DNA of 64,000 bases, from the NCBI RefSeq assembly GCF_044647545.1, contig NZ_CP172818.1, one strand, 5' to 3'. Below the pieces are notes generated by a model. The model was not told the origin of the DNA. It saw only the letters and a program-made list of their open reading frames with translations, and ran no database searches. This document shows, piece by piece, positions 20,830 through 63,621 of this stretch (its first letter is position 1; every line of letters begins with the position of its first letter). The stretch is from Escherichia coli. Its GTDB lineage: Bacteria; Pseudomonadota; Gammaproteobacteria; Enterobacterales; Enterobacteriaceae. The translations under genes were made by a program, and so were the position numbers.

Positions 20830-20875
20830 AGAATTATCCTCTGTATTATGTGTTATAGGCGCTTTACTCAAAAAA

Positions 20876-20908
20876 AAGCCGACTCTTAAAGTCGGCTTTA
20901 ATTATTTT
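20876..20908 (-). terminator. Intercistronic hairpin plus T-run (attenuator/terminator) between upp and uraA
   Basis: Minus strand: gccgact-ttaag-agtcggc followed by TTTTTTTT. Confidence 0.65.
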
Positions 20909-41249: not shown

Positions 41250-41359
41250 GTTTATTCTCTTTCTGAATATAAAAATGAACCCTCAACGCTTCCCTCAATG
41301 TTTCGGGAGCCATGCGGGTTCAATCATACACGGGAAGCGAGGCGCTTCCCATCACGTTA

Positions 41360-42478
41360 TTATTTTTCAACCTGCTGAACGTCAATTCGACGCGCTTCGT
41401 CCAGCTGACTGGCTTTCGCACGAATGCGCGCTTCCAGCTGGTCGATCATATCGTTGTTGTCCAGACGGTCTTTGCGCACGCCATCTTCATAGAGGCCGCT
41501 TTTCTTGTTGCCGCCGGTGACGCCGAGTGTAGAAACCAGCGCCTCACCTGGGCCATTCACCACGCAGCCGATAATCGAAACGTCCATCGGAGTGATGATA
41601 TCTTCCAGGCGTTGCTCCAGCGCGTTAACCGTACCGATAACATCAAACTCCTGACGCGAACAGGTTGGACAGGCGATGAAGTTGATCCCGCGCGAACGGA
41701 TACGCAGCGATTTCAAAATATCGAAACCGACTTTGATCTCTTCGACCGGATCGGCCGCCAGCGATACGCGCAGCGTGTCGCCGATGCCTTCAGACAGCAG
41801 CAGACCTAAACCAATGGCGGATTTAACCGCCCCGCTGCGCGCACCACCCGCTTCGGTGATCCCCAGATGCAGCGGCTGATCGATCTGTTTTGCCAGCAAA
41901 CGATAAGACTCAACAGCGAGGAAGACGTCAGACGCTTTCACGCTGACTTTGAACTGATCGAAGTTCAGGCGATCGAGATGATCAACATGACGCATGGCGG
42001 ATTCCAGCAACGCCTGCGGCGTCGGTTCGCCATACTTTTCTTGCAGATCTTTTTCCAGCGATCCGGCGTTAACGCCAATACGGATCGGAATGTTTTTATC
42101 GCGCGCACAGTCAACCACCATGCGAATACGCTCTTCATTACCGATATTGCCAGGGTTAATACGCAGACAATCGACGCCGTATTCCGCTACTTTCAGCGCA
42201 ATGCGATAGTCGAAATGGATGTCAGCCACCAGCGGCACGTTAACCTGCTGTTTGATGAGTTTGAACGCTTCTGCCGCGTCCATCGTCGGTACGGAGACAC
42301 GGACGATATCAGCGCCAACACGTTCCAGCGCCTTGATTTGATTGACCGTTGCTTCGACGTCTGTCGTACGCGTATTGGTCATGGACTGTACGGCGATGGG
42401 AGCACCATCGCCAATCGGCACATTCCCAACGTAAATACGTGTTGATTTTCTACGTTGAATTGGAGCCTGGTTATGCAT
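41360..42478 (-). CDS. ispG: 4-hydroxy-3-methylbut-2-enyl diphosphate synthase (flavodoxin)
   Basis: 372 aa; C-terminal Fe-S Cys ligands (ACPTCSRQ). Confidence 0.94.
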
Positions 42479-54051: not shown

Positions 54052-54294
54052 ATTGCTGGTCTGTTCCCTCAATATACCAAACACCCACGACACAAACTCC
54101 TAACCTCTTTCAACAAAAAATTTCTTTATTATATCCACTGCGGCCCTTTCCGCCAACTTAAAAAATGTTCGGTAATAAAATAACCTGGCTTATTAGTCCG
54201 AATTCGGACAAATATAAACAAATCAGCTCAATATTAAAAATACTAATCGGTAAAAGATATTACTTAAACGTGTAAATTCACTTTCTTTAAACAA

Positions 54295-54325
54295 CAAAAA
54301 ACCGCCAAAATCAGGCGGTTTTTTG
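54295..54325. repeat. Second copy of the A-run/hairpin/T-run element (terminator-like)
   Basis: aaaaaaccgcc-aaaatcag-ggcggtttttt followed by gttgctggt, as after copy 1. Confidence 0.6.
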
Positions 54326-54474
54326 TTGCTGGTTTGGTTCGCGGCCTTTCCAGCAGATTGGCTTGTGTTGCATGAGCAACGCAGGTGCTTCACAGCAAAG
54401 CAATACTCGCCAGTAACTCTCTTTTTGTCAAGCGAAAGAGAGTAATCATTGTTTATTTAGCGTATTATCGACAC

Positions 54475-54780
54475 CGGCCCTTTCCGCCGTCTCGCAAACG
54501 GGCGCTGGCTTAAGGAAAGGATGTTCCATGGCCGTAAATGCAGGTGTTTCACAGCGCTTGCTATCGCGGCAATATCGCCAGTGGTGCTGTCGTGATGCGG
54601 TCTTCGCATGGACCGCACAATGAAGATACGGAGCTTTTGTATCGTACTTATTGTTTCTGGTGCGCTGTTAACCGAGGTAAATAATAACCGGAGTCTCTCC
54701 GGCAACAATTTATTGGTGGTTAACAACCTTCAGAACAGCAGGTAAGCCCGAATGCCGCCCTTTGGGGCGGCATATTTTAG
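54475..54780 (+). ncRNA. ryfA: ryfA-like small RNA / small-protein mRNA (boundaries approximate)
   Basis: -10-like TATTAT at 54463-54468; transcript would run to the terminator atgccgccc-tttg-gggcggcat + T-tract at 54752-54780; about 305 nt; position between sseA and sseB. Confidence 0.45.
54521..54595 (+). CDS. Candidate 24-aa hydrophobic small protein within the ryfA-like transcript (type-I toxin-like)
   Basis: Strong SD AAGGAAAGG directly upstream of ATG; MFHGRKCRCFTALAIAAISPVVLS*. Alternative ORF 54620..54745 (41 aa, MKIRSFCIVLIVSGALL...) has no obvious SD. Confidence 0.3.
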   Translation: MFHGRKCRCFTALAIAAISPVVLS

Positions 54781-56979: not shown

Positions 56980-57027
56980 TTTAGTTATCCTTATTCGTTT
57001 AACGCAAAACGGGTCCCCCCAGCCCAT

Positions 57028-57228
57028 TTACTCGGCCTCGTCAAGCCAGACCAACAAAATCGCTTCGAGGATTTTTTCGTTGGATGCCTGCGGGTCGTCG
57101 TCGAAATCTTCCAGATCGCAAATCCACTGATGCATATCGGTGAATCGAACCGTTTTCGGATCAAGATCGGGATACGCATCGTACAGTGCTTCGCCAATTT
57201 CGCGGCTATCGGTCCACTTAAGTCCCAT
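57028..57228 (-). CDS. iscX: Fe-S cluster assembly protein IscX
   Basis: 66-aa acidic ORF ([24 protein letters not shown]...). Confidence 0.92.
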
Positions 57229-57239
57229 ACTAACCTCTG

Positions 57240-57575
57240 TTAATGCTCACGCGCATGGTTGATAGTGTAACGCGGGATTTCGACCACTAAATCTTCGTCG
57301 GTAACGCGCGCCTGGCAGCTTAAACGGCTTTCCGGCTCCAGTCCCCAGGCTTTGTCCAGCATGTCGTCTTCCTGCTCTGAGCTTTCCGGCAGCGAGTCAA
57401 AACCTTCACGAACGATGCAGTGGCAGGTGGTGCAAGCACAGGATTTTTCACAGGCGTGTTCAATCTCGATACCGTTACGCAGCGCAACGTCGAGAATGGT
57501 TTCACCACTATTCGCTTCCAGAACAGCGCCATCAGGGCAGAGATCCTGATGAGGCAAAATAACAATCTTTGGCAT
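57240..57575 (-). CDS. fdx: [2Fe-2S] ferredoxin of the isc system
   Basis: 111 aa; Cys ligands in [12 protein letters not shown]. Confidence 0.94.
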
Positions 57576-57576
57576 A

Positions 57577-59427
57577 TTAAACCTCGTCCACGGAATGGCC
57601 TTTCAGCGCACGACGAACCGACTGGTCCATGCGGCGAGCGGCGAAATCCTGGGTTTGTTTGTCTACGTTTTTAATCGCTTGTTCGATGGCGTCAACATCA
57701 TCGCCCTGCGCCACTTCACTCAGGTGAGCGGCAGCATCGTCGATATCCTGACGTTCTGCGGCGCTTAACAGCGCGGCATCAGCAGCCAGCGCGCCGTGCA
57801 GACTTTCCAGCACACGCGCCGCTTCTACTTTTTGTTCTGCCAGCATACGGGCTTTTACGTCCTGCTCGGCATAGCTCATTGAGTCTTTGATCATCGAAGC
57901 GATTTCGCTATCGGTCAGACCGTAAGACGGTTTGACCTGAATAGACGCCTCAACGCCGGTGGATTTCTCCATCGCCGTCACGCTCAAAAGACCGTCGGCA
58001 TCGACCTGGAACGTTACGCGAATATGCGCGCCGCCAGCCGGTAGCGCCGGGATACCACGCAGTGCAAAACGCGCCAGCGAGCGGCAGTCCTGCACCAGTT
58101 CACGTTCACCCTGCATCACATGGATAGACATTGCCGTCTGACCATCTTTAAAGGTGGTGAAATCCTGGGCGCGGGCCACCGGAATCGTGGTATTACGCGG
58201 GATCACTTTCTCCACCAGGCCGCCCATGGTCTCGAGGCCCAGCGACAGCGGGATCACATCCAGCAACAGCATTTCGCTGTCCGGCTTGTTACCCACCAGA
58301 ATATCCGCCTGAATCGCCGCGCCAATAGCGACGACTTTATCCGGGTCGATAGAAGTCAGCGGTGGACGACCGAAAAATTCGCCTACTCGTTCACGCACCA
58401 GCGGCACGCGAGTAGAACCGCCCACCATCACCACTTCCAGCACTTCATCAGCTTCTACGCCCGCATCTTTCAGCGCGCGACGACAAGCCAGTAAGGTTCG
58501 TTTTACCAGTGGCGCGATCAGTTCATTGAATTGTTCACGGCTGATTTCGCCCTGCCAGCCCGCAACGTTAACGGTCACAGAGTCCGCATCGCTCAGCGCG
58601 ATTTTGGCTGCAATGGCGGCATCCAGCAGTTCACGCTGAACGCGGTTATCGCTACGATCAGGAATGCCCGCCTGCTCGCGAATATAATCCGCCAGCAGAT
58701 GGTCGAAATCATCGCCGCCGAGCGCGGAATCACCGCCGGTTGCCAGCACTTCAAACACGCCGCGACTTAAGCGCAGAATGGAAATATCAAACGTCCCGCC
58801 ACCGAGGTCATAAACGGCGATCACGCCTTCCTGACCGGAATCCAGCCCGTAGGCGATAGCCGCAGCGGTCGGTTCGTTAAGTAAGCGCAGGACGTGAAGG
58901 CCCGCCAGACGCGCCGCGTCTTTGGTGCCCTGACGCTGGGCATCGTCAAAGTACGCCGGAACGGTGATAACTACACCATCCAGCTCGCCTGCCAGGGCTT
59001 CAGTTGCCCGCGCCGCCAGTGCTTTGAGGATGTCCGCAGAAACGCGCACCGGGTTCAGCAGTCCTGCCGCCGTTTCAATCATCGGAAGGCCGTTTTCGCT
59101 GGCCTGGAATTGATAAGGCAGATGTGGATAGCGTTGCTGGATATCAGCCAGCGAGCGCCCCATCAGGCGTTTAACAGAACTAATGGTGTTGGCGGTGTCG
59201 AGCGCTGCGTTAGTACGCGCGTCATAACCCACCGAATGCCCTTGCTGTTGATAGTGAACAACAGATGGCAGCAGGTGACGGCCTTCATGGTCGGCTAACG
59301 TTTCGGCCTGACCGCTGCGCACTGTCGCCACCAGCGAGTTGGTTGTGCCCAGGTCGATACCGGCCGCCAGACGACGCTGATGCGGCGCAGCACTCAAACC
59401 AGGTTCACTAATTTGTAATAAGGCCAT
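57577..59427 (-). CDS. hscA: Hsp70-type Fe-S cluster chaperone HscA
   Basis: 616 aa from ATG at 59427 ([17 protein letters not shown]...); Hsp70 signatures [16 protein letters not shown]. Confidence 0.95.
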
Positions 59428-59443
59428 GTTTAGCTTCCAGAAA

Positions 59444-59959
59444 TTAAAAATCGAGCAGTTTTTCTTCGAGTTGTTCGGCACTGCTTCGCAGTTTATCGAG
59501 AAAACGCAGCTTACGCACGGTATCCGCCGCCGCGTCCCACGTCTCGTTGTCTAACTGTTCAACCATCAACTGATGGCGGGTATCAAACATCTTTTTCACA
59601 CGTTTGATAAAGCTTTCCAGCCGCGCTTCATCTTTCGCCTGTTCGATCTCGTCCAGTTCTTCGCGCAGTTCCAGCTGTTCCATCAGGAACGCGGTGTCGC
59701 GCACAGTATGCTGCTCGCTGGCGAGATCAAAACCGTGCAAAGAAAGTAAATATTCCGCGCGCATTAACGGATGACGCAGCGTTTGCCAGGCCTGGTTAAT
59801 GGTTGCAGATTGCTGTACGGCGGCGAGTTGTTCCGCCTGGCTTCCGCTGGCGAATTTATCAGGATGATACTGACGTTGTAGATCCTGAAAACGCAGGCTC
59901 AGTGCCTGGGTATCGAGTTGATAACGGGCAGGCAAGCCAAAGAGGGTGAAGTAATCCAT
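59444..59959 (-). CDS. hscB: J-type co-chaperone HscB
   Basis: 171 aa; J-domain HPD motif (YHPDKF). Confidence 0.94.
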
Positions 59960-60054
59960 AACATTCTCAGGGCTGCGATCCGCCGCGATAACGGCGAATC
60001 AGGTAAAACAAACCCCACGCGCAGGCGACCACGGTGGGGTTATCGGTATGCGCA

Positions 60055-60378
60055 TCAAACGTGGAAGCTTTCGCCGCAACCACACTCATCTTTGACGTTC
60101 GGGTTAGTGAATTTAAACCCTTCGTTCAGGCCTTCTTTTACGAAGTCCAGCTGCGTACCGTCCAGAAATTGCAGGCTTTTGCCATCGACCACGACTTTCA
60201 CGCCTTTGTCTTCAAACACGATGTCTTCCGGCGTCGGTTCGTCAACAAATTCCAGTACATAAGCCATACCTGAACATCCGGAGGTTCTCACGCCCAGACG
60301 CAGGCCAAACCCTTTGCCGCGGTTAGCCAGAAAGGTATTTACTCGCGCTGCTGCACTGTCGCTCAGTGTAATCGACAT
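60055..60378 (-). CDS. iscA: A-type Fe-S cluster carrier IscA
   Basis: 107 aa from ATG at 60378; C-terminal CGCGESF. Confidence 0.94.
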
Positions 60379-60394
60379 AACCAAACCTCAACTC

Positions 60395-60781
60395 TTATTT
60401 TGCTTCACGTTTGCTTTTATAGTCCGCAATGGCGGCTTTGATCGCGTCTTCTGCCAGAATAGAACAGTGAATTTTCACCGGCGGCAGTTCAAGTTCTTCA
60501 GCAATATCGGTGTTTTTGATCGCCTGCGCTTCGTCGAGAGACTTCCCTTTCACCCATTCGGTGACCAGGGAGCTGGAAGCGATAGCAGAACCGCAGCCGT
60601 AAGTTTTAAAACGCGCGTCTTCAATGATACCTTCATCGTTGACTTTAATCTGCAACTTCATCACGTCGCCACAGGCCGGTGCACCCACCATGCCGCTGCC
60701 GACGTTCTCGTCGTTGTTGTCAAAGGAACCCACGTTACGCGGATTCTCGTAATGGTCGATAACTTTTTCGCTGTAAGCCAT
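60395..60781 (-). CDS. iscU: Fe-S cluster scaffold IscU
   Basis: 128 aa; conserved Cys (GAPACGDVMK, YGCGSAIAS, IHCSILAED) and LPPVK motif. Confidence 0.95.
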   Translation of the reverse strand: MAYSEKVIDHYENPRNVGSFDNNDENVGSGMVGAPACGDVMKLQIKVNDEGIIEDARFKTYGCGSAIASSSLVTEWVKGKSLDEAQAIKNTDIAEELELPPVKIHCSILAEDAIKAAIADYKSKREAK

Positions 60782-60808
60782 TATAAATTCTCCTGATTCC
60801 GATACCGA

Positions 60809-62023
60809 TTAATGATGAGCCCATTCGATGCTGTTCAGATCCACGCCCTGCTTGTACATTTCCCACAGCGGAGAAAGGTCACGCAGACGACCGATGGATT
60901 TACGAACTAACTCGATGGTGTAGTCGATCTCTTCTTCAGTAGTAAAACGACCTAAAGAGAAACGGATAGAGCTATGTGCCAGCTCGTCGTTCAGCCCCAG
61001 CGCGCGCAGCACGTAGGACGGTTCGAGGCTTGCTGACGTACAGGCGGAACCTGAAGAAACCGCGAGGTCTTTCAGCGCCATAATCAGCGACTCACCTTCA
61101 ACGTAGTTGAAGCTGACGTTGAGAATGTTCGGCGCACCGTGTTCCAGGTCACCGTTCAGGTAAACTTCTTCGATATCTTTGATGCCGTTCCACAGACGGT
61201 TACGCAGGCCGCGCAGACGTTCCATCTCGGTCGCCATCTCTTCTTTTGCGATGCGATAGGCTTCGCCCATACCAACGATCTGGTGAACAGGCAGAGTGCC
61301 GGAACGCATACCGCGCTCGTGACCGCCGCCGTGCATTTGCGCTTCGATGCGTACGCGCGGTTTACGACGCACATACAGCGCACCGATACCTTTCGGGCCA
61401 TAGATTTTGTGACCGGAGAATGACATCAGGTCAACTTTCAACTGGCTCAGGTCGATAGGCAGTTTGCCCACGCTCTGGGTTGCATCAACGTGATAGATAA
61501 TGCCACGAGCACGGCACATTTCGCCGATAGCCGCGATATCCTGCACCACGCCGATTTCGTTATTCACGTGCATGATAGAAACGAGGATGGTGTCGTCACG
61601 CATCGCTGCTTCCAGTTCTTTCAGGTCGATAATGCCGTTACGCTGCGGTGCCAGGTAGGTGACTTCGAAACCTTCGCGCTCCAGCTGACGGCAGGTATCC
61701 AGTACCGCTTTGTGTTCGGTTTTACTGGTGATGATGTGCTTGCCTTTTTTCTGATAAAAGTTGGCTGCACCTTTGATCGCCAGGTTGTCAGATTCGGTTG
61801 CACCAGAGGTAAAGACGATTTCACGCGGGTCAGCGCCGACCAGATCGGCAATCTGATTACGGGCGATATCAACCGCTTCTTCAGCCTGCCAGCCGAAACG
61901 GTGAGAACGGGAGGCCGGGTTACCAAAGGTTCCGTCCATCGTCATAAACTGCATCATTTTCTCGGCAACACGCGGGTCCACCGGCGTGGTTGCGGAGTAG
62001 TCGAGATAAATCGGTAATTTCAT
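60809..62023 (-). CDS. iscS: Cysteine desulfurase IscS
   Basis: 404 aa from ATG at 62023 ([16 protein letters not shown]...); PLP-Lys in [12 protein letters not shown]; active-site SSGSACTS. Confidence 0.95.
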
Positions 62024-62134
62024 TGCTCTATAAACTCCGTACATCACTCAATGCAAGGAACCAGGCTACCGGCTGGATGTACGACCGTGTTTACGGAGTG
62101 TTTAGCACTCCGGCCTGATTCTGAATTCTTTTTA

Positions 62135-62623
62135 TTAAGCGCGTAACTTAACGTCGATCGCGTCTTGTGTGCGGGTGCGTGGCGCGTCGTGAGTATGCTG
62201 ACGACCAGACACATCCAGCACTTCCTGGTTATTAACCAGTTCGCCTAAAGTAATGTTATTGAGAAAACCGGTAAGACGGTCGCTCAAATCACGCCACAGC
62301 GCGTGGGTCAGGCATTTATCGCCGCCCTGGCAGCCGCCTTTACCCTGACAACGGGTGGCATCTACAGATTCGTCAACGGCGCTAATCACTTCGCCAACGG
62401 CGATGCTGCTGGCATCTTTGCCTAACAGATAACCACCGCCTGGTCCACGTACGCTGGAAACCAGACCATTTTTACGCAGACGGGAAAACAGTTGTTCCAG
62501 ATAAGAAAGGGAAATTCCCTGACGTTCGGAAATATCAGCCAACGGTACCGGGCCCGCTTCAGAGTTGAGCGCAACGTCAAGCATTGCGGTCACGGCATAG
62601 CGCCCTTTAGATGTCAGTCTCAT
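62135..62623 (-). CDS. iscR: Rrf2-family [2Fe-2S] transcriptional regulator IscR
   Basis: 162 aa; N-terminal HTH; cluster ligands in [13 protein letters not shown]...H. Confidence 0.94.
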
Positions 62624-62732
62624 GTCTTACTTCACCTCAAACTCGCCCCTGCCCGGGGTTTTTTATTGTAAAAGTGGGGGTATTGCATAGCAGGGTCAAG
62701 TCTGACATTCCCGAGTAAATTGGTCAACTATT

Positions 62733-62756
62733 TACTTGACTGATTTAGTCGGGTAT
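62733..62756 (-). promoter_or_regulatory. Candidate IscR type-1 binding site in the iscR promoter
   Basis: Minus strand ATACCCGACTAAATCAGTCAAGTA fits ATAsyyGACTrwwwyAGTCrrsTAT; about 110-130 nt upstream of the iscR start. Confidence 0.5.
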
Positions 62757-62799
62757 TTAACCTTCAGTGCCATTTTTTTATCGTGGCGTTTGTACCTGT

Positions 62800-62873
62800 T
62801 GTCGGATGCGGTGTGAACACCTTATCCGACCTGGACCAAGCCTGATAAGACGCGTTAAGCATCGCATCAGGCA
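62800..62873. repeat. REP/BIME cluster (two palindromic units)
   Basis: gtcggatgcggtgtgaacaccttatccgac and gcctgataagacgcgttaagcatcgcatcaggc, classic REP units between trmJ and the iscR promoter. Confidence 0.75.
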
Positions 62874-62880
62874 ACCACTG

Positions 62881-63621
62881 TTATTCGGCCTTGTTACCTT
62901 TATTCTGCTGCTCAATAGAAGCCAGAATCCCGCGCAGGATATTCAATTCCTGGCTTTCCGGGCGTGCACGGGTAAACAGACGGCGCAATTTATTCATCAC
63001 CTGCCCCGGATGGTTTTCACGGATAAAACCGGTTGCCAGCAGCGTTTGCTCCAGATGACCATAAAAACGCTCCAGATCATCGACCAGCGGATACGGCGTC
63101 TCTTCATGCTCGACCTGCTCGCCATTTTCCTGAGTTGCCAGCCAGGCCATGCGCACTTCATAGGCAATAACCTGAACCGCCATCGCCAGGTTCAGCGAAC
63201 TGTATTCCGGGTTAGCCGCAATCGCGACATGATAATGGCATTTCTGCAGCTCTTCATTGGTCAAGCCGACGCGCTCGCGACCAAACACCAGCGCCACCGG
63301 GGTATTTGCCGCTTCAGCGACGCTTTTCAGACCGCATTCGCGCGGGTCGAGCATCGGCCACGGCAGCGTGCGAGAACGTGCGCTGGTGCCCACCACCAGG
63401 CTACAACCAGCCAACGCTTCGTCGAGCGTATCGACGATGTGCGCATTACCAATCACATCGCTGGCCCCTGCTGCCAGGGCAATCGCCTGGGAGTCGGGTT
63501 TCACCAGTGGATTAACCAGCCACAGATTGGTTAATCCCATTGTTTTCATGGCACGGGCAACAGAACCCATATTGCCGGTGTGTGACGTCTCCACCAGCAC
63601 AATTCGAATATTTTGCAGCAT
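62881..63621 (-). CDS. trmJ: tRNA (cytidine/uridine-2'-O)-methyltransferase TrmJ (SPOUT)
   Basis: 246 aa ([26 protein letters not shown]...). Confidence 0.93.

What the first reader, a model, noticed from the sequence alone, without database searches (positions are those of the whole stretch)
62624..62760. IscR autoregulatory site upstream of the isc operon
The minus-strand sequence ATACCCGACTAAATCAGTCAAGTA fits the type-1 IscR motif, consistent with feedback control of the intact iscRSUA-hscBA-fdx-iscX cluster.
Basis: partly seen in the sequence, partly recalled or inferred. Interest (0 to 1): 0.2.

Follow-up and report, generated by a model that had tools for sequence, protein, structure and literature searches.

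The report
Known E. coli iscR promoter operator
This is the well-studied control region in front of the E. coli iron-sulfur cluster assembly (isc) operon, where the cluster-loaded IscR repressor binds two adjacent sites to shut off its own operon; it is real but entirely ordinary and already known.

Summary
The quoted sequence is present on the minus strand at 62756..62733. It is the first 24 of 25 bases of a type-1 IscR site (site A, 62756..62732), with 1 mismatch to the published consensus. Shuffled sequence gives 0 such matches.

Site B contains the -35 hexamer TTGACC. Seventeen bp downstream lies an extended -10, TGtCAGACT. Bound IscR would therefore occlude RNA polymerase.

About 205 bp upstream of the iscR start codon are 100% identical to E. 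coli K-12 MG1655. The 76-bp operator is at least 99% identical in 5,348 of 5,424 matching complete E. coli genomes. IscR here equals K-12 IscR, with E43, C92, C98, C104 and H107. All eight genes from iscR to iscX are intact.

In 80 other gammaproteobacterial species the A+B tandem, the TG and the -10 form a sharply bounded 60-bp conserved block.

A 2025 paper uses a 30-mer that is 29/30 identical to site B as its [2Fe-2S]-IscR binding substrate. It also shows IscR-dependent repression of PiscR.

Verdict: observation confirmed, interpretation supported, already known, low interest. The only loose end is a small conserved hairpin in the iscR 5'UTR.

The parts
62732..62756 (-). IscR type-1 site A (promoter-distal operator), ATACCCGACTAAATCAGTCAAGTAA. 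It lies about -65..-41 from the inferred transcription start.
   Evidence: 24/25 match to the consensus. The position exactly 25 bp upstream of site B has 6 or fewer mismatches in 72 of 80 orthologous promoters. Identical to K-12.
62707..62731 (-). IscR type-1 site B (promoter-proximal operator), ATAGTTGACCAATTTACTCGGGAAT. It lies about -40..-16 and covers the -35 hexamer, the spacer and the T of the extended -10 TG.
   Evidence: 22/25 match. It has 3 or fewer mismatches in 75 of 80 orthologous promoters, with T2, T5, T6, A8 and T18 invariant. The 30-mer 'iscRB' oligo used for [2Fe-2S]-IscR fluorescence anisotropy in PMC12594620 is 29/30 identical to window 62734..62705.
62722..62727 (-). -35 hexamer TTGACC, embedded in the left half-site of site B.
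   Evidence: Read from the sequence. TTGAC is near-invariant in 80 orthologs: T 80, T 80, G 78, A 80, C 78. Assigning it as the -35 is an inference from the 17-bp spacing to the -10.
62699..62707 (-). Extended -10 element TGtCAGACT (TG at 62707-62706, hexamer CAGACT at 62704..62699).
   Evidence: Conserved in orthologs although outside the IscR motif: G26 78/80, A29 76/80, A31 67/80, T33 79/80, the usual -14, -11, -9 and -7 signature. The simple sigma-70 scan did not call it because the hexamer matches TATAAT at only 3 of 6 positions.
62691..62691 (-). Inferred transcription start (+1), which gives a 68-nt 5'UTR.
   Evidence: Inferred from the -10 position: 7-8 nt downstream of the hexamer, where conservation ends. 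It agrees with my recollection of site coordinates -65..-41 and -40..-16 in Giel et al. 2006/2013, which I could not retrieve. The primer-extension-based positions in P. aeruginosa are close: -67..-43 and -42..-18. No transcription-start data were obtained here.
62624..62690 (-). iscR 5'UTR, including the hairpin CCCCGGGCAGGGG (62658..62646) and the Shine-Dalgarno GAGGTG (62638..62633).
   Evidence: Sequence. The hairpin is the only element of the centroid fold. Its position, 21-22 nt before the ATG, is kept with different stem sequences in Enterobacteriaceae and Erwiniaceae.
62135..62623 (-). iscR, the Rrf2-family [2Fe-2S] regulator that binds sites A and B.
   Evidence: 162 aa, 100% identical to K-12 IscR. 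NCBIfam equivalog NF008110, 344.7 bits against a cutoff of 275. Matches PDB entries 4HF0, 4HF1, 4HF2 and 4CHU. E43, C92, C98, C104 and H107 were read from the translation.
62025..62134 (-). iscR-iscS intergenic 'iscR stability element' (Rfam RF01517), a second, post-transcriptional layer of control on the same mRNA.
   Evidence: Rfam match of 136.5 bits against a gathering score of 40, full length.
57028..62023 (-). Regulated genes: iscS 60809-62023, iscU 60395-60781, iscA 60055-60378, hscB 59444-59959, hscA 57577-59427, fdx 57240-57575, iscX 57028-57228.
   Evidence: Same lengths as K-12, no internal stops. Five are identical to K-12; Fdx and HscA each differ at one residue.

Best explanation
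Window 62691-62756 (minus strand) is the E. coli iscR promoter (PiscR) with its operator. The operator is two abutting 25-bp type-1 IscR sites. Site A (62756..62732) lies where RNA polymerase makes upstream alpha-CTD/UP contacts. Site B (62731..62707) contains the -35 hexamer TTGACC and runs up to the extended -10. When the Isc machinery satisfies the cell's Fe-S demand, IscR carries a reduced [2Fe-2S] cluster. In that form it binds type-1 DNA, occupies A and B, and blocks RNA polymerase. This represses iscRSUA-hscBA-fdx(-iscX), including iscR itself. When clusters are scarce or oxidised, IscR becomes apo or [2Fe-2S]2+, leaves the type-1 sites and the operon is derepressed. This is a homeostatic negative feedback loop. 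Shown here: the presence, statistics, identity to K-12 and deep conservation of the sites and promoter elements, an intact regulator with its ligand residues, and an intact operon. Taken from the literature: cluster-dependent binding and IscR-dependent repression. Inferred: the exact transcription start and steric occlusion as the mode of repression.
For: Sites with 1 and 3 mismatches, abutting, against 0 expected by chance. About 205 bp upstream of the ATG are 100% identical to MG1655. The 76-bp operator and promoter are at least 99% identical in 5,348 of 5,424 matching complete E. coli genomes, always single-copy and chromosomal. In 80 species of Enterobacterales, Vibrionales, Alteromonadales and Aeromonadales, the iscR upstream region carries site B (3 or fewer mismatches in 75/80) and, exactly 25 bp upstream, site A (6 or fewer mismatches in 72/80). 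Only 3 matches with 4 or fewer mismatches occur in the rest of about 355 kb of the same loci. Information content rises abruptly one base before site A and falls abruptly after the -10 hexamer, with random flanks. IscR is the NCBIfam equivalog, identical to K-12, with E43, C92, C98, C104 and H107. Literature: PMC12594620 uses AAATAGTTGACCATTTTACTCGGGAATGTC ('iscRB', 29/30 identical to the window) to measure [2Fe-2S]-IscR binding. It reports weakened binding on cluster oxidation, 32-fold repression of PiscR-lacZ by holo-IscR, none by IscR(C92A), and no induction by the redox-cycling agent PMS in a strain lacking iscR. PMC4055776 states that E. coli IscR autoregulates through type-1 motifs in the isc promoter. 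[quoted passage not shown]
Against: Nothing substantive. The simple sigma-70 scan found no promoter in 62500-63000, because the -10 hexamer CAGACT is weak; the TG extension and the conservation pattern compensate. The primary papers that mapped the sites and the transcription start (Schwartz 2001; Giel 2006, 2013; Nesbit 2009; Rajagopalan 2013) are not in the held library. The -65..-41 and -40..-16 numbering and the relative contributions of A and B therefore rest on my memory plus inference. The published iscRB oligo differs from the genome by one base. The reported weak 'site C' could not be located: no further match with fewer than 10 mismatches in 62600-62900.
Confidence: 0.97

Rival explanations
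1. The conserved 60-bp block is only a strong core promoter plus UP element, conserved for RNA polymerase contacts. The resemblance to an IscR site is incidental, because TTGAC is part of both.
For: The -35 TTGACC sits inside site B. The right half-site of IscR motifs is known to resemble a -35 element (PMC8561392). A/T-rich flanks at -41..-65 could act as an UP element. The -10 and TG are conserved alongside the sites.
Against: Both 25-mers keep the dyad GACT/AGTC-type half-sites and the terminal ATA/TAT. This includes positions RNA polymerase has no reason to constrain, such as site B positions 18-25 in the spacer and all of site A. The same 25-bp unit occurs twice in exact 25-bp register in 72/80 species. 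Direct binding of [2Fe-2S]-IscR to the site B oligo and IscR-dependent repression are published.
Confidence: 0.01
2. Only site B is the working operator. The site the first reader flagged (site A) contributes little or nothing to repression.
For: Site B overlaps the -35 element and is much better conserved: 3 or fewer mismatches in 75/80 species against 32/80 for site A. A few species (L067, L071, L072, L076, L077) lack a recognisable site A. In P. aeruginosa, IscR fills site B first and site A only at higher concentration (PMC6599224).
Against: In this window site A is the better consensus match (1 mismatch against 3). Its position and register are retained in 72/80 species. PMC6599224 summarises the E. 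coli model as IscR binding either site independently. My recollection of Giel et al. 2013 is that both A and B contribute to repression and only site C is dispensable, but I could not verify this here.
Confidence: 0.1
3. The sites are operators for a different Rrf2-family regulator (for example NsrR) rather than IscR.
For: Rrf2 proteins share the winged-helix fold. The IscR sequence gives weak sub-threshold matches to the NsrR, RirA and CymR models.
Against: The sites match the IscR type-1 consensus at 24/25 and 22/25. They always lie immediately upstream of iscR orthologs. Regulation is lost in delta-iscR strains.
Confidence: 0.005

Closest known systems
E. coli K-12 PiscR operator (IscR type-1 sites A and B; Schwartz 2001, Giel 2006/2013)
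   Same: Base-for-base identical from the REP element to the iscR ATG. Same regulator protein, same operon, same tandem abutting arrangement.
   Different: Nothing in the operator itself. Upstream, the window has one REP/BIME unit between trmJ and iscR where K-12 has three. This is strain-level repeat variation outside the promoter.
Pseudomonas aeruginosa PAO1 iscR promoter sites A and B (PMC3899308, PMC6599224)
   Same: Two abutting 25-bp type-1 sites, at -67..-43 and -42..-18. Site B, ATAGTTGACCTAATTACTCGGATAA, is 21/25 identical to the window's site B. Repression is by holo-IscR.
   Different: PAO1 site A is a poorer consensus match (68%). Binding is sequential or cooperative (B, then A), whereas it is reported as independent in E. 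coli. PAO1 has no site C and no suf operon.
IscR type-2 sites (hyaA, sufA, ydiU promoters)
   Same: Same regulator. They also overlap the -35 region.
   Different: The motif differs (AWARCCCYTSnGTTTGMnGKKKTKWA). These sites are bound by apo-IscR as well and can activate transcription. There is no match in the window with up to 3 mismatches.

Membership tests
IscR type-1 binding site | 25-bp imperfect palindrome matching ATASYYGACTRWWWYAGTCRRSTAT | tested here: met
   Site A 24/25, site B 22/25. No matches in 100 shuffles. The next best genuine candidate in 64 kb has 7 or more mismatches, apart from a terminator-like palindrome with 4.
IscR type-1 binding site | Lies in or over the RNA polymerase binding region of a promoter that IscR represses | tested here: met
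   Site B contains TTGACC, 17 bp upstream of TGtCAGACT. Conservation of the TG and of the -10 positions A29, A31 and T33 in 80 species supports this assignment. The transcription start itself is inferred, not measured.
IscR type-1 binding site | Bound with high affinity only by [2Fe-2S]-IscR, not by apo-IscR | not testable with these tools
   Literature only. PMC12594620 measures [2Fe-2S]-IscR binding to a 30-mer 29/30 identical to window 62734..62705, and finds no repression by IscR(C92A).
IscR type-1 binding site | Cognate IscR with cluster ligands C92, C98, C104, H107 and the discriminating residue E43 is encoded in the genome | tested here: met
   iscR at 62135-62623 is 100% identical to K-12. 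All five residues were read from the translation. NCBIfam equivalog NF008110 scores above its cutoff.
IscR type-1 binding site | Conserved upstream of orthologous iscR genes (phylogenetic footprint) | tested here: met
   80 species: site B has 3 or fewer mismatches in 75; site A in exact 25-bp register has 6 or fewer mismatches in 72; the conserved block has sharp boundaries.
E. coli PiscR (the specific known locus) | Sequence identity and synteny with K-12 trmJ-iscRSUA-hscBA-fdx-iscX | tested here: met
   100% identity over the promoter and 5'UTR. Same gene order and same protein lengths; six of the eight Isc proteins are identical to K-12, and Fdx and HscA each differ at one residue. The operator is at least 99% identical in 5,348 complete E. 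coli genomes.
IscR type-2 binding site | Match to AWARCCCYTSnGTTTGMnGKKKTKWA | tested here: not met
   No match with up to 3 mismatches anywhere in the window.

The most novel reading that the evidence does not exclude
The operator itself holds nothing new. The most novel reading still open concerns the leader. The short GC-rich hairpin in the iscR 5'UTR (62658..62646) ends 22 nt before the ATG. Its position and pairing are kept, but not its sequence, across Enterobacteriaceae and Erwiniaceae, and it is flanked by an A-run upstream and a short U-run downstream. It might be an undescribed post-transcriptional element of isc control. Candidate roles are a leader pause or attenuator, a barrier against 5'-end decay, or, read on the + strand, a terminator for antisense transcription through iscR. 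I found no description of it in Rfam or in the papers I could read.
Probability: 0.15. Interest if true: 0.3.

Novelty: already known. Interest (0 to 1): 0.05.

Why it matters
It matters only as correct annotation. The site is the sensor-to-output link of the Fe-S cluster homeostasis loop in E. coli, one of the best-characterised examples of a transcription factor whose DNA specificity is switched by a [2Fe-2S] cluster. Nothing about the copy in this window departs from the textbook case, so it needs no follow-up. The cross-species footprint made here shows cleanly that the tandem A+B architecture, the embedded -35 and the extended -10 are ancestral to a large part of the Gammaproteobacteria. 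That agrees with published work in Pseudomonas and Yersinia.

Tried and rejected
1. I tried to retrieve the primary mapping papers: Giel 2013 by DOI and PMC4108476, Schwartz 2001 (PMC64955), Nesbit 2009 (PMC2709974), Rajagopalan 2013 (PMC3676455), Mettert and Kiley (PMC4390428 and PMC4248867), Fleischhacker 2012 (PMC3447993) and Thomason 2015 (PMC4288677). None is held.

2. Full-text searches for the site sequences and for the expected transcription-start coordinates found nothing useful. The transcription start and the -65/-16 numbering are therefore inferred or remembered, not documented here.

3. I looked for the reported weak 'site C' with the consensus. The best remaining candidates in 62600-62900 have 10 or more mismatches, so it cannot be placed by sequence.

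4. The sigma-70 consensus scan found no promoter. I rejected this as evidence against a promoter because the scan's threshold (at least 4 of 6 per hexamer) excludes the weak, TG-extended -10.

5. RNAalifold on 23 leaders returned no consensus structure, because MAFFT put the Erwiniaceae hairpins one column out of register. A per-sequence hairpin search showed the conserved stem-loop instead. That script stopped with an error after 28 of 34 sequences.

6. The 4-mismatch match at 20875-20899 was considered as a possible extra IscR site. I rejected it as most likely a chance resemblance: a perfect GC-rich palindrome flanked by an A-run and a T-run between upp and uraA, with the conserved outer ATA/TAT replaced by AAA/TTT.

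7. A type-2 IscR motif was tested and is absent.

8. An Rfam search at a permissive E-value over 62560-62900 gave only sub-threshold naRNA4 (REP-derived) matches upstream of the promoter and nothing in the leader.

Full report
**What is in the sequence.**
- The end of the window is the E. coli isc locus on the minus strand. The genes are trmJ (62881-63621), iscR (62135-62623), iscS, iscU, iscA, hscB, hscA, fdx and iscX (57028-62023), then pepB and sseB. suhB diverges on the + strand.
- Each of the eight isc genes has the K-12 length and no internal stop. Six proteins, including IscR, are identical to K-12. Fdx and HscA each differ at one residue.

**Is the match more than chance?**
- I searched the window with the published type-1 consensus ATASYYGACTRWWWYAGTCRRSTAT. 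The consensus is quoted in PMC6599224 and PMC3899308.
- With up to 3 mismatches the search returns exactly two matches. 100 dinucleotide-preserving shuffles give none.
- The second is ATAGTTGACCAATTTACTCGGGAAT (62731..62707, 3 mismatches; site B). The two sites abut without a gap.
- A full tally over both strands finds only one other position below 7 mismatches. It is a perfect palindrome between upp and uraA at 20875-20899 (4 mismatches) that looks like a terminator hairpin.
- No type-2 IscR motif is present in the window.

**Identity with the known locus.**
- About 205 bp, from the REP element down to the iscR ATG, are 100% identical to MG1655.
- The only difference upstream is repeat copy number: one REP/BIME unit here against three in K-12.
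- A 76-bp query covering the operator and core promoter is found once per chromosome in 5,424 of 5,426 complete E. coli genomes. Identity is at least 99% in 5,348 of them.
- IscR is the NCBIfam equivalog and matches the crystallised E. coli protein in 4HF0, 4HF1, 4HF2 and 4CHU.
- The cluster ligands C92, C98, C104 and H107, and the specificity residue E43, are all present in the translation.

**Promoter anatomy.**
- Site B carries TTGACC at its positions 5-10 (62727..62722).
- Seventeen bp downstream is CAGACT (62704..62699), preceded by TG (62707-62706, the last base of site B and the next base). This makes an extended -10.
- This places +1 near 62691 and gives a 68-nt leader. Site B then lies at about -40..-16 and site A at about -65..-41.
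- Those numbers match my recollection of Giel et al., which I could not retrieve. They are within 2 nt of the primer-extension-based positions in P. aeruginosa: -42..-18 and -67..-43.
- The transcription start is inferred. The generic sigma-70 scan did not call this promoter because the hexamer is weak.

**Comparative evidence.**
- A scan of one genome per species with IscR returned 80 loci. They come from Enterobacterales, Vibrionales, Alteromonadales and Aeromonadales.
- Every locus has a type-1 match upstream of iscR.
- The promoter-proximal site has 3 or fewer mismatches in 75/80. The position exactly 25 bp upstream has 6 or fewer mismatches in 72/80.
- Elsewhere in about 355 kb of these loci, only three matches have 4 or fewer mismatches.
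- I anchored all sequences on site B and computed information content per column. It jumps from about 0.4 to 1.7 bits one base before site A. It stays high through both sites, the G of the TG (78/80) and the -10 signature A29, A31 and T33 (76, 67 and 79 of 80). It collapses to background after position 34.
- The footprint therefore covers the operator plus the core promoter and nothing else.
- Anchoring on the motif inflates conservation within site B itself. It does not inflate it at site A, the TG or the -10.

**Mechanism.**
- Held literature supplies the functional steps.
[quoted passage not shown] It measures binding to a 30-mer 'iscRB' site that is 29/30 identical to window 62734..62705.
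- The same paper shows that oxidation of the cluster weakens binding. It reports 32-fold repression of PiscR-lacZ by holo-IscR, none by IscR(C92A), and no induction by the redox-cycling agent PMS in a strain lacking iscR.
- PMC4055776 states that E. coli IscR autoregulates iscRSUA-hscBA-fdx through type-1 motifs. It adds that iscX(yfhJ)-pepB-sseB also rise in an iscR mutant.
- PMC8561392 notes that all promoters with type I sites are repressed, and that E43 discriminates type I from type II sites.
- Together with the anatomy, the best explanation is steric exclusion of RNA polymerase by holo-IscR on sites A and B. This closes a negative feedback loop on Fe-S cluster supply. The occlusion step is inference from position.
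- A weak, non-conserved 'site C' is reported for E. coli. It cannot be located with the consensus.
- A second, post-transcriptional layer lies downstream: the iscR-iscS stability element, at 62025-62134 (Rfam RF01517).

**Rivals.**
- The block could be only promoter and UP element. This is contradicted by the conserved dyad positions that polymerase does not read, by the exact 25-bp duplication, and by published binding data.
- Only site B might matter. This is a reasonable refinement, because B is better conserved and a few species lack A. However, in this window A is the better match and its register is widely retained. The published E. coli model has both sites bound independently.
- A different Rrf2 regulator could use the sites. 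Nothing supports this.

**Verdict.**
- The feature is the already-known E. coli PiscR operator. Interest is very low.

**Side observation.**
- The E. coli leader is about 40 nt longer than in Yersinia, Proteus, Vibrio or Aeromonas.
- The extra part contains a 4-bp GC hairpin, CCCCGGGCAGGGG (62658..62646), ending 22 nt before the ATG.
- A hairpin at the same distance occurs in Enterobacteriaceae and Erwiniaceae with different stems: GCCC/GGGC, TCCGG/CCGGA, CCCCG/CGGGG and GCCCG/CGGGC.
- It is the only element of the centroid fold. The leader as a whole is not unusually stable (z = +1.57).
- On the + strand it reads as a terminator-like site. It has no Rfam family. I could not determine a function.

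Noticed in passing
window 62646-62658 (minus strand), with L002-L038 leaders: Small GC-rich hairpin CCCCGGGCAGGGG in the iscR 5'UTR, ending 22 nt before the ATG. Its position and pairing are conserved, but not its sequence, across Enterobacteriaceae and Erwiniaceae. It is absent from the short leaders of Yersinia, Proteus, Vibrio and Aeromonas. On the + strand it scores as a terminator-like site (GCCCCTGCCCGGGGT + TTTTTATTGT). In Siccibacter and Mangrovibacter it is followed by a U5 run in the sense direction. Function unknown; no Rfam family.
   Followed up: partly
window 20875-20899: Perfect palindrome AAAGCCGACTCTTAAAGTCGGCTTT between upp and uraA, flanked by an A-run and a T-run. It is the third-best match in the window to the IscR type-1 consensus (4 mismatches). 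It looks like a bidirectional or intra-operon terminator hairpin, and the resemblance is probably chance.
   Followed up: partly
window 62768-62898: The trmJ-iscR spacer holds one REP/BIME unit, seen as sub-threshold naRNA4/REP matches. K-12 MG1655 has three tandem units, so its spacer is 451 bp against 257 bp here. The best-matching complete genomes differ by a 13-bp indel in this repeat.
   Followed up: partly
window 56980-57027: The pepB-iscX spacer is 48 nt here against 177 nt in K-12. The roughly 129-nt difference was not examined and is probably another REP-type insertion in K-12.
   Followed up: no
window 54138-54338 and 54474-54778 (+), 41269-41360 (-): Rfam gathering-level matches to IS128 RNA, ryfA (the K-12 annotation has timR, ryfA and the toxin gene timP here, between sseA and sseB) and sroE.
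   Followed up: no
L056:3941-3965 and L076:3713-3737: Two Alteromonadaceae genomes carry an additional good type-1 IscR match (2 and 3 mismatches) about 1.7-1.9 kb downstream of the iscR ATG, roughly where iscS ends. This suggests a second IscR-controlled promoter inside the operon in that family.
   Followed up: no
window 62705-62734 versus PMC12594620 methods: The published 'iscRB' 30-mer (AAATAGTTGACCATTTTACTCGGGAATGTC) differs from the K-12 and window sequence (AAATAGTTGACCAATTTACTCGGGAATGTC) by one base in the central A/T tract. This is either a typo or a deliberate variant.
   Followed up: no
L015 (Shimwellia) 1826-2000 and L036 (Escherichia sp. ESNIH1) 1896-2000: These two species have much longer iscR leaders, 175 and 105 nt. 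The extra sequence is inserted between the conserved promoter and the conserved hairpin and Shine-Dalgarno module. The nature of the insertions was not examined.
   Followed up: no
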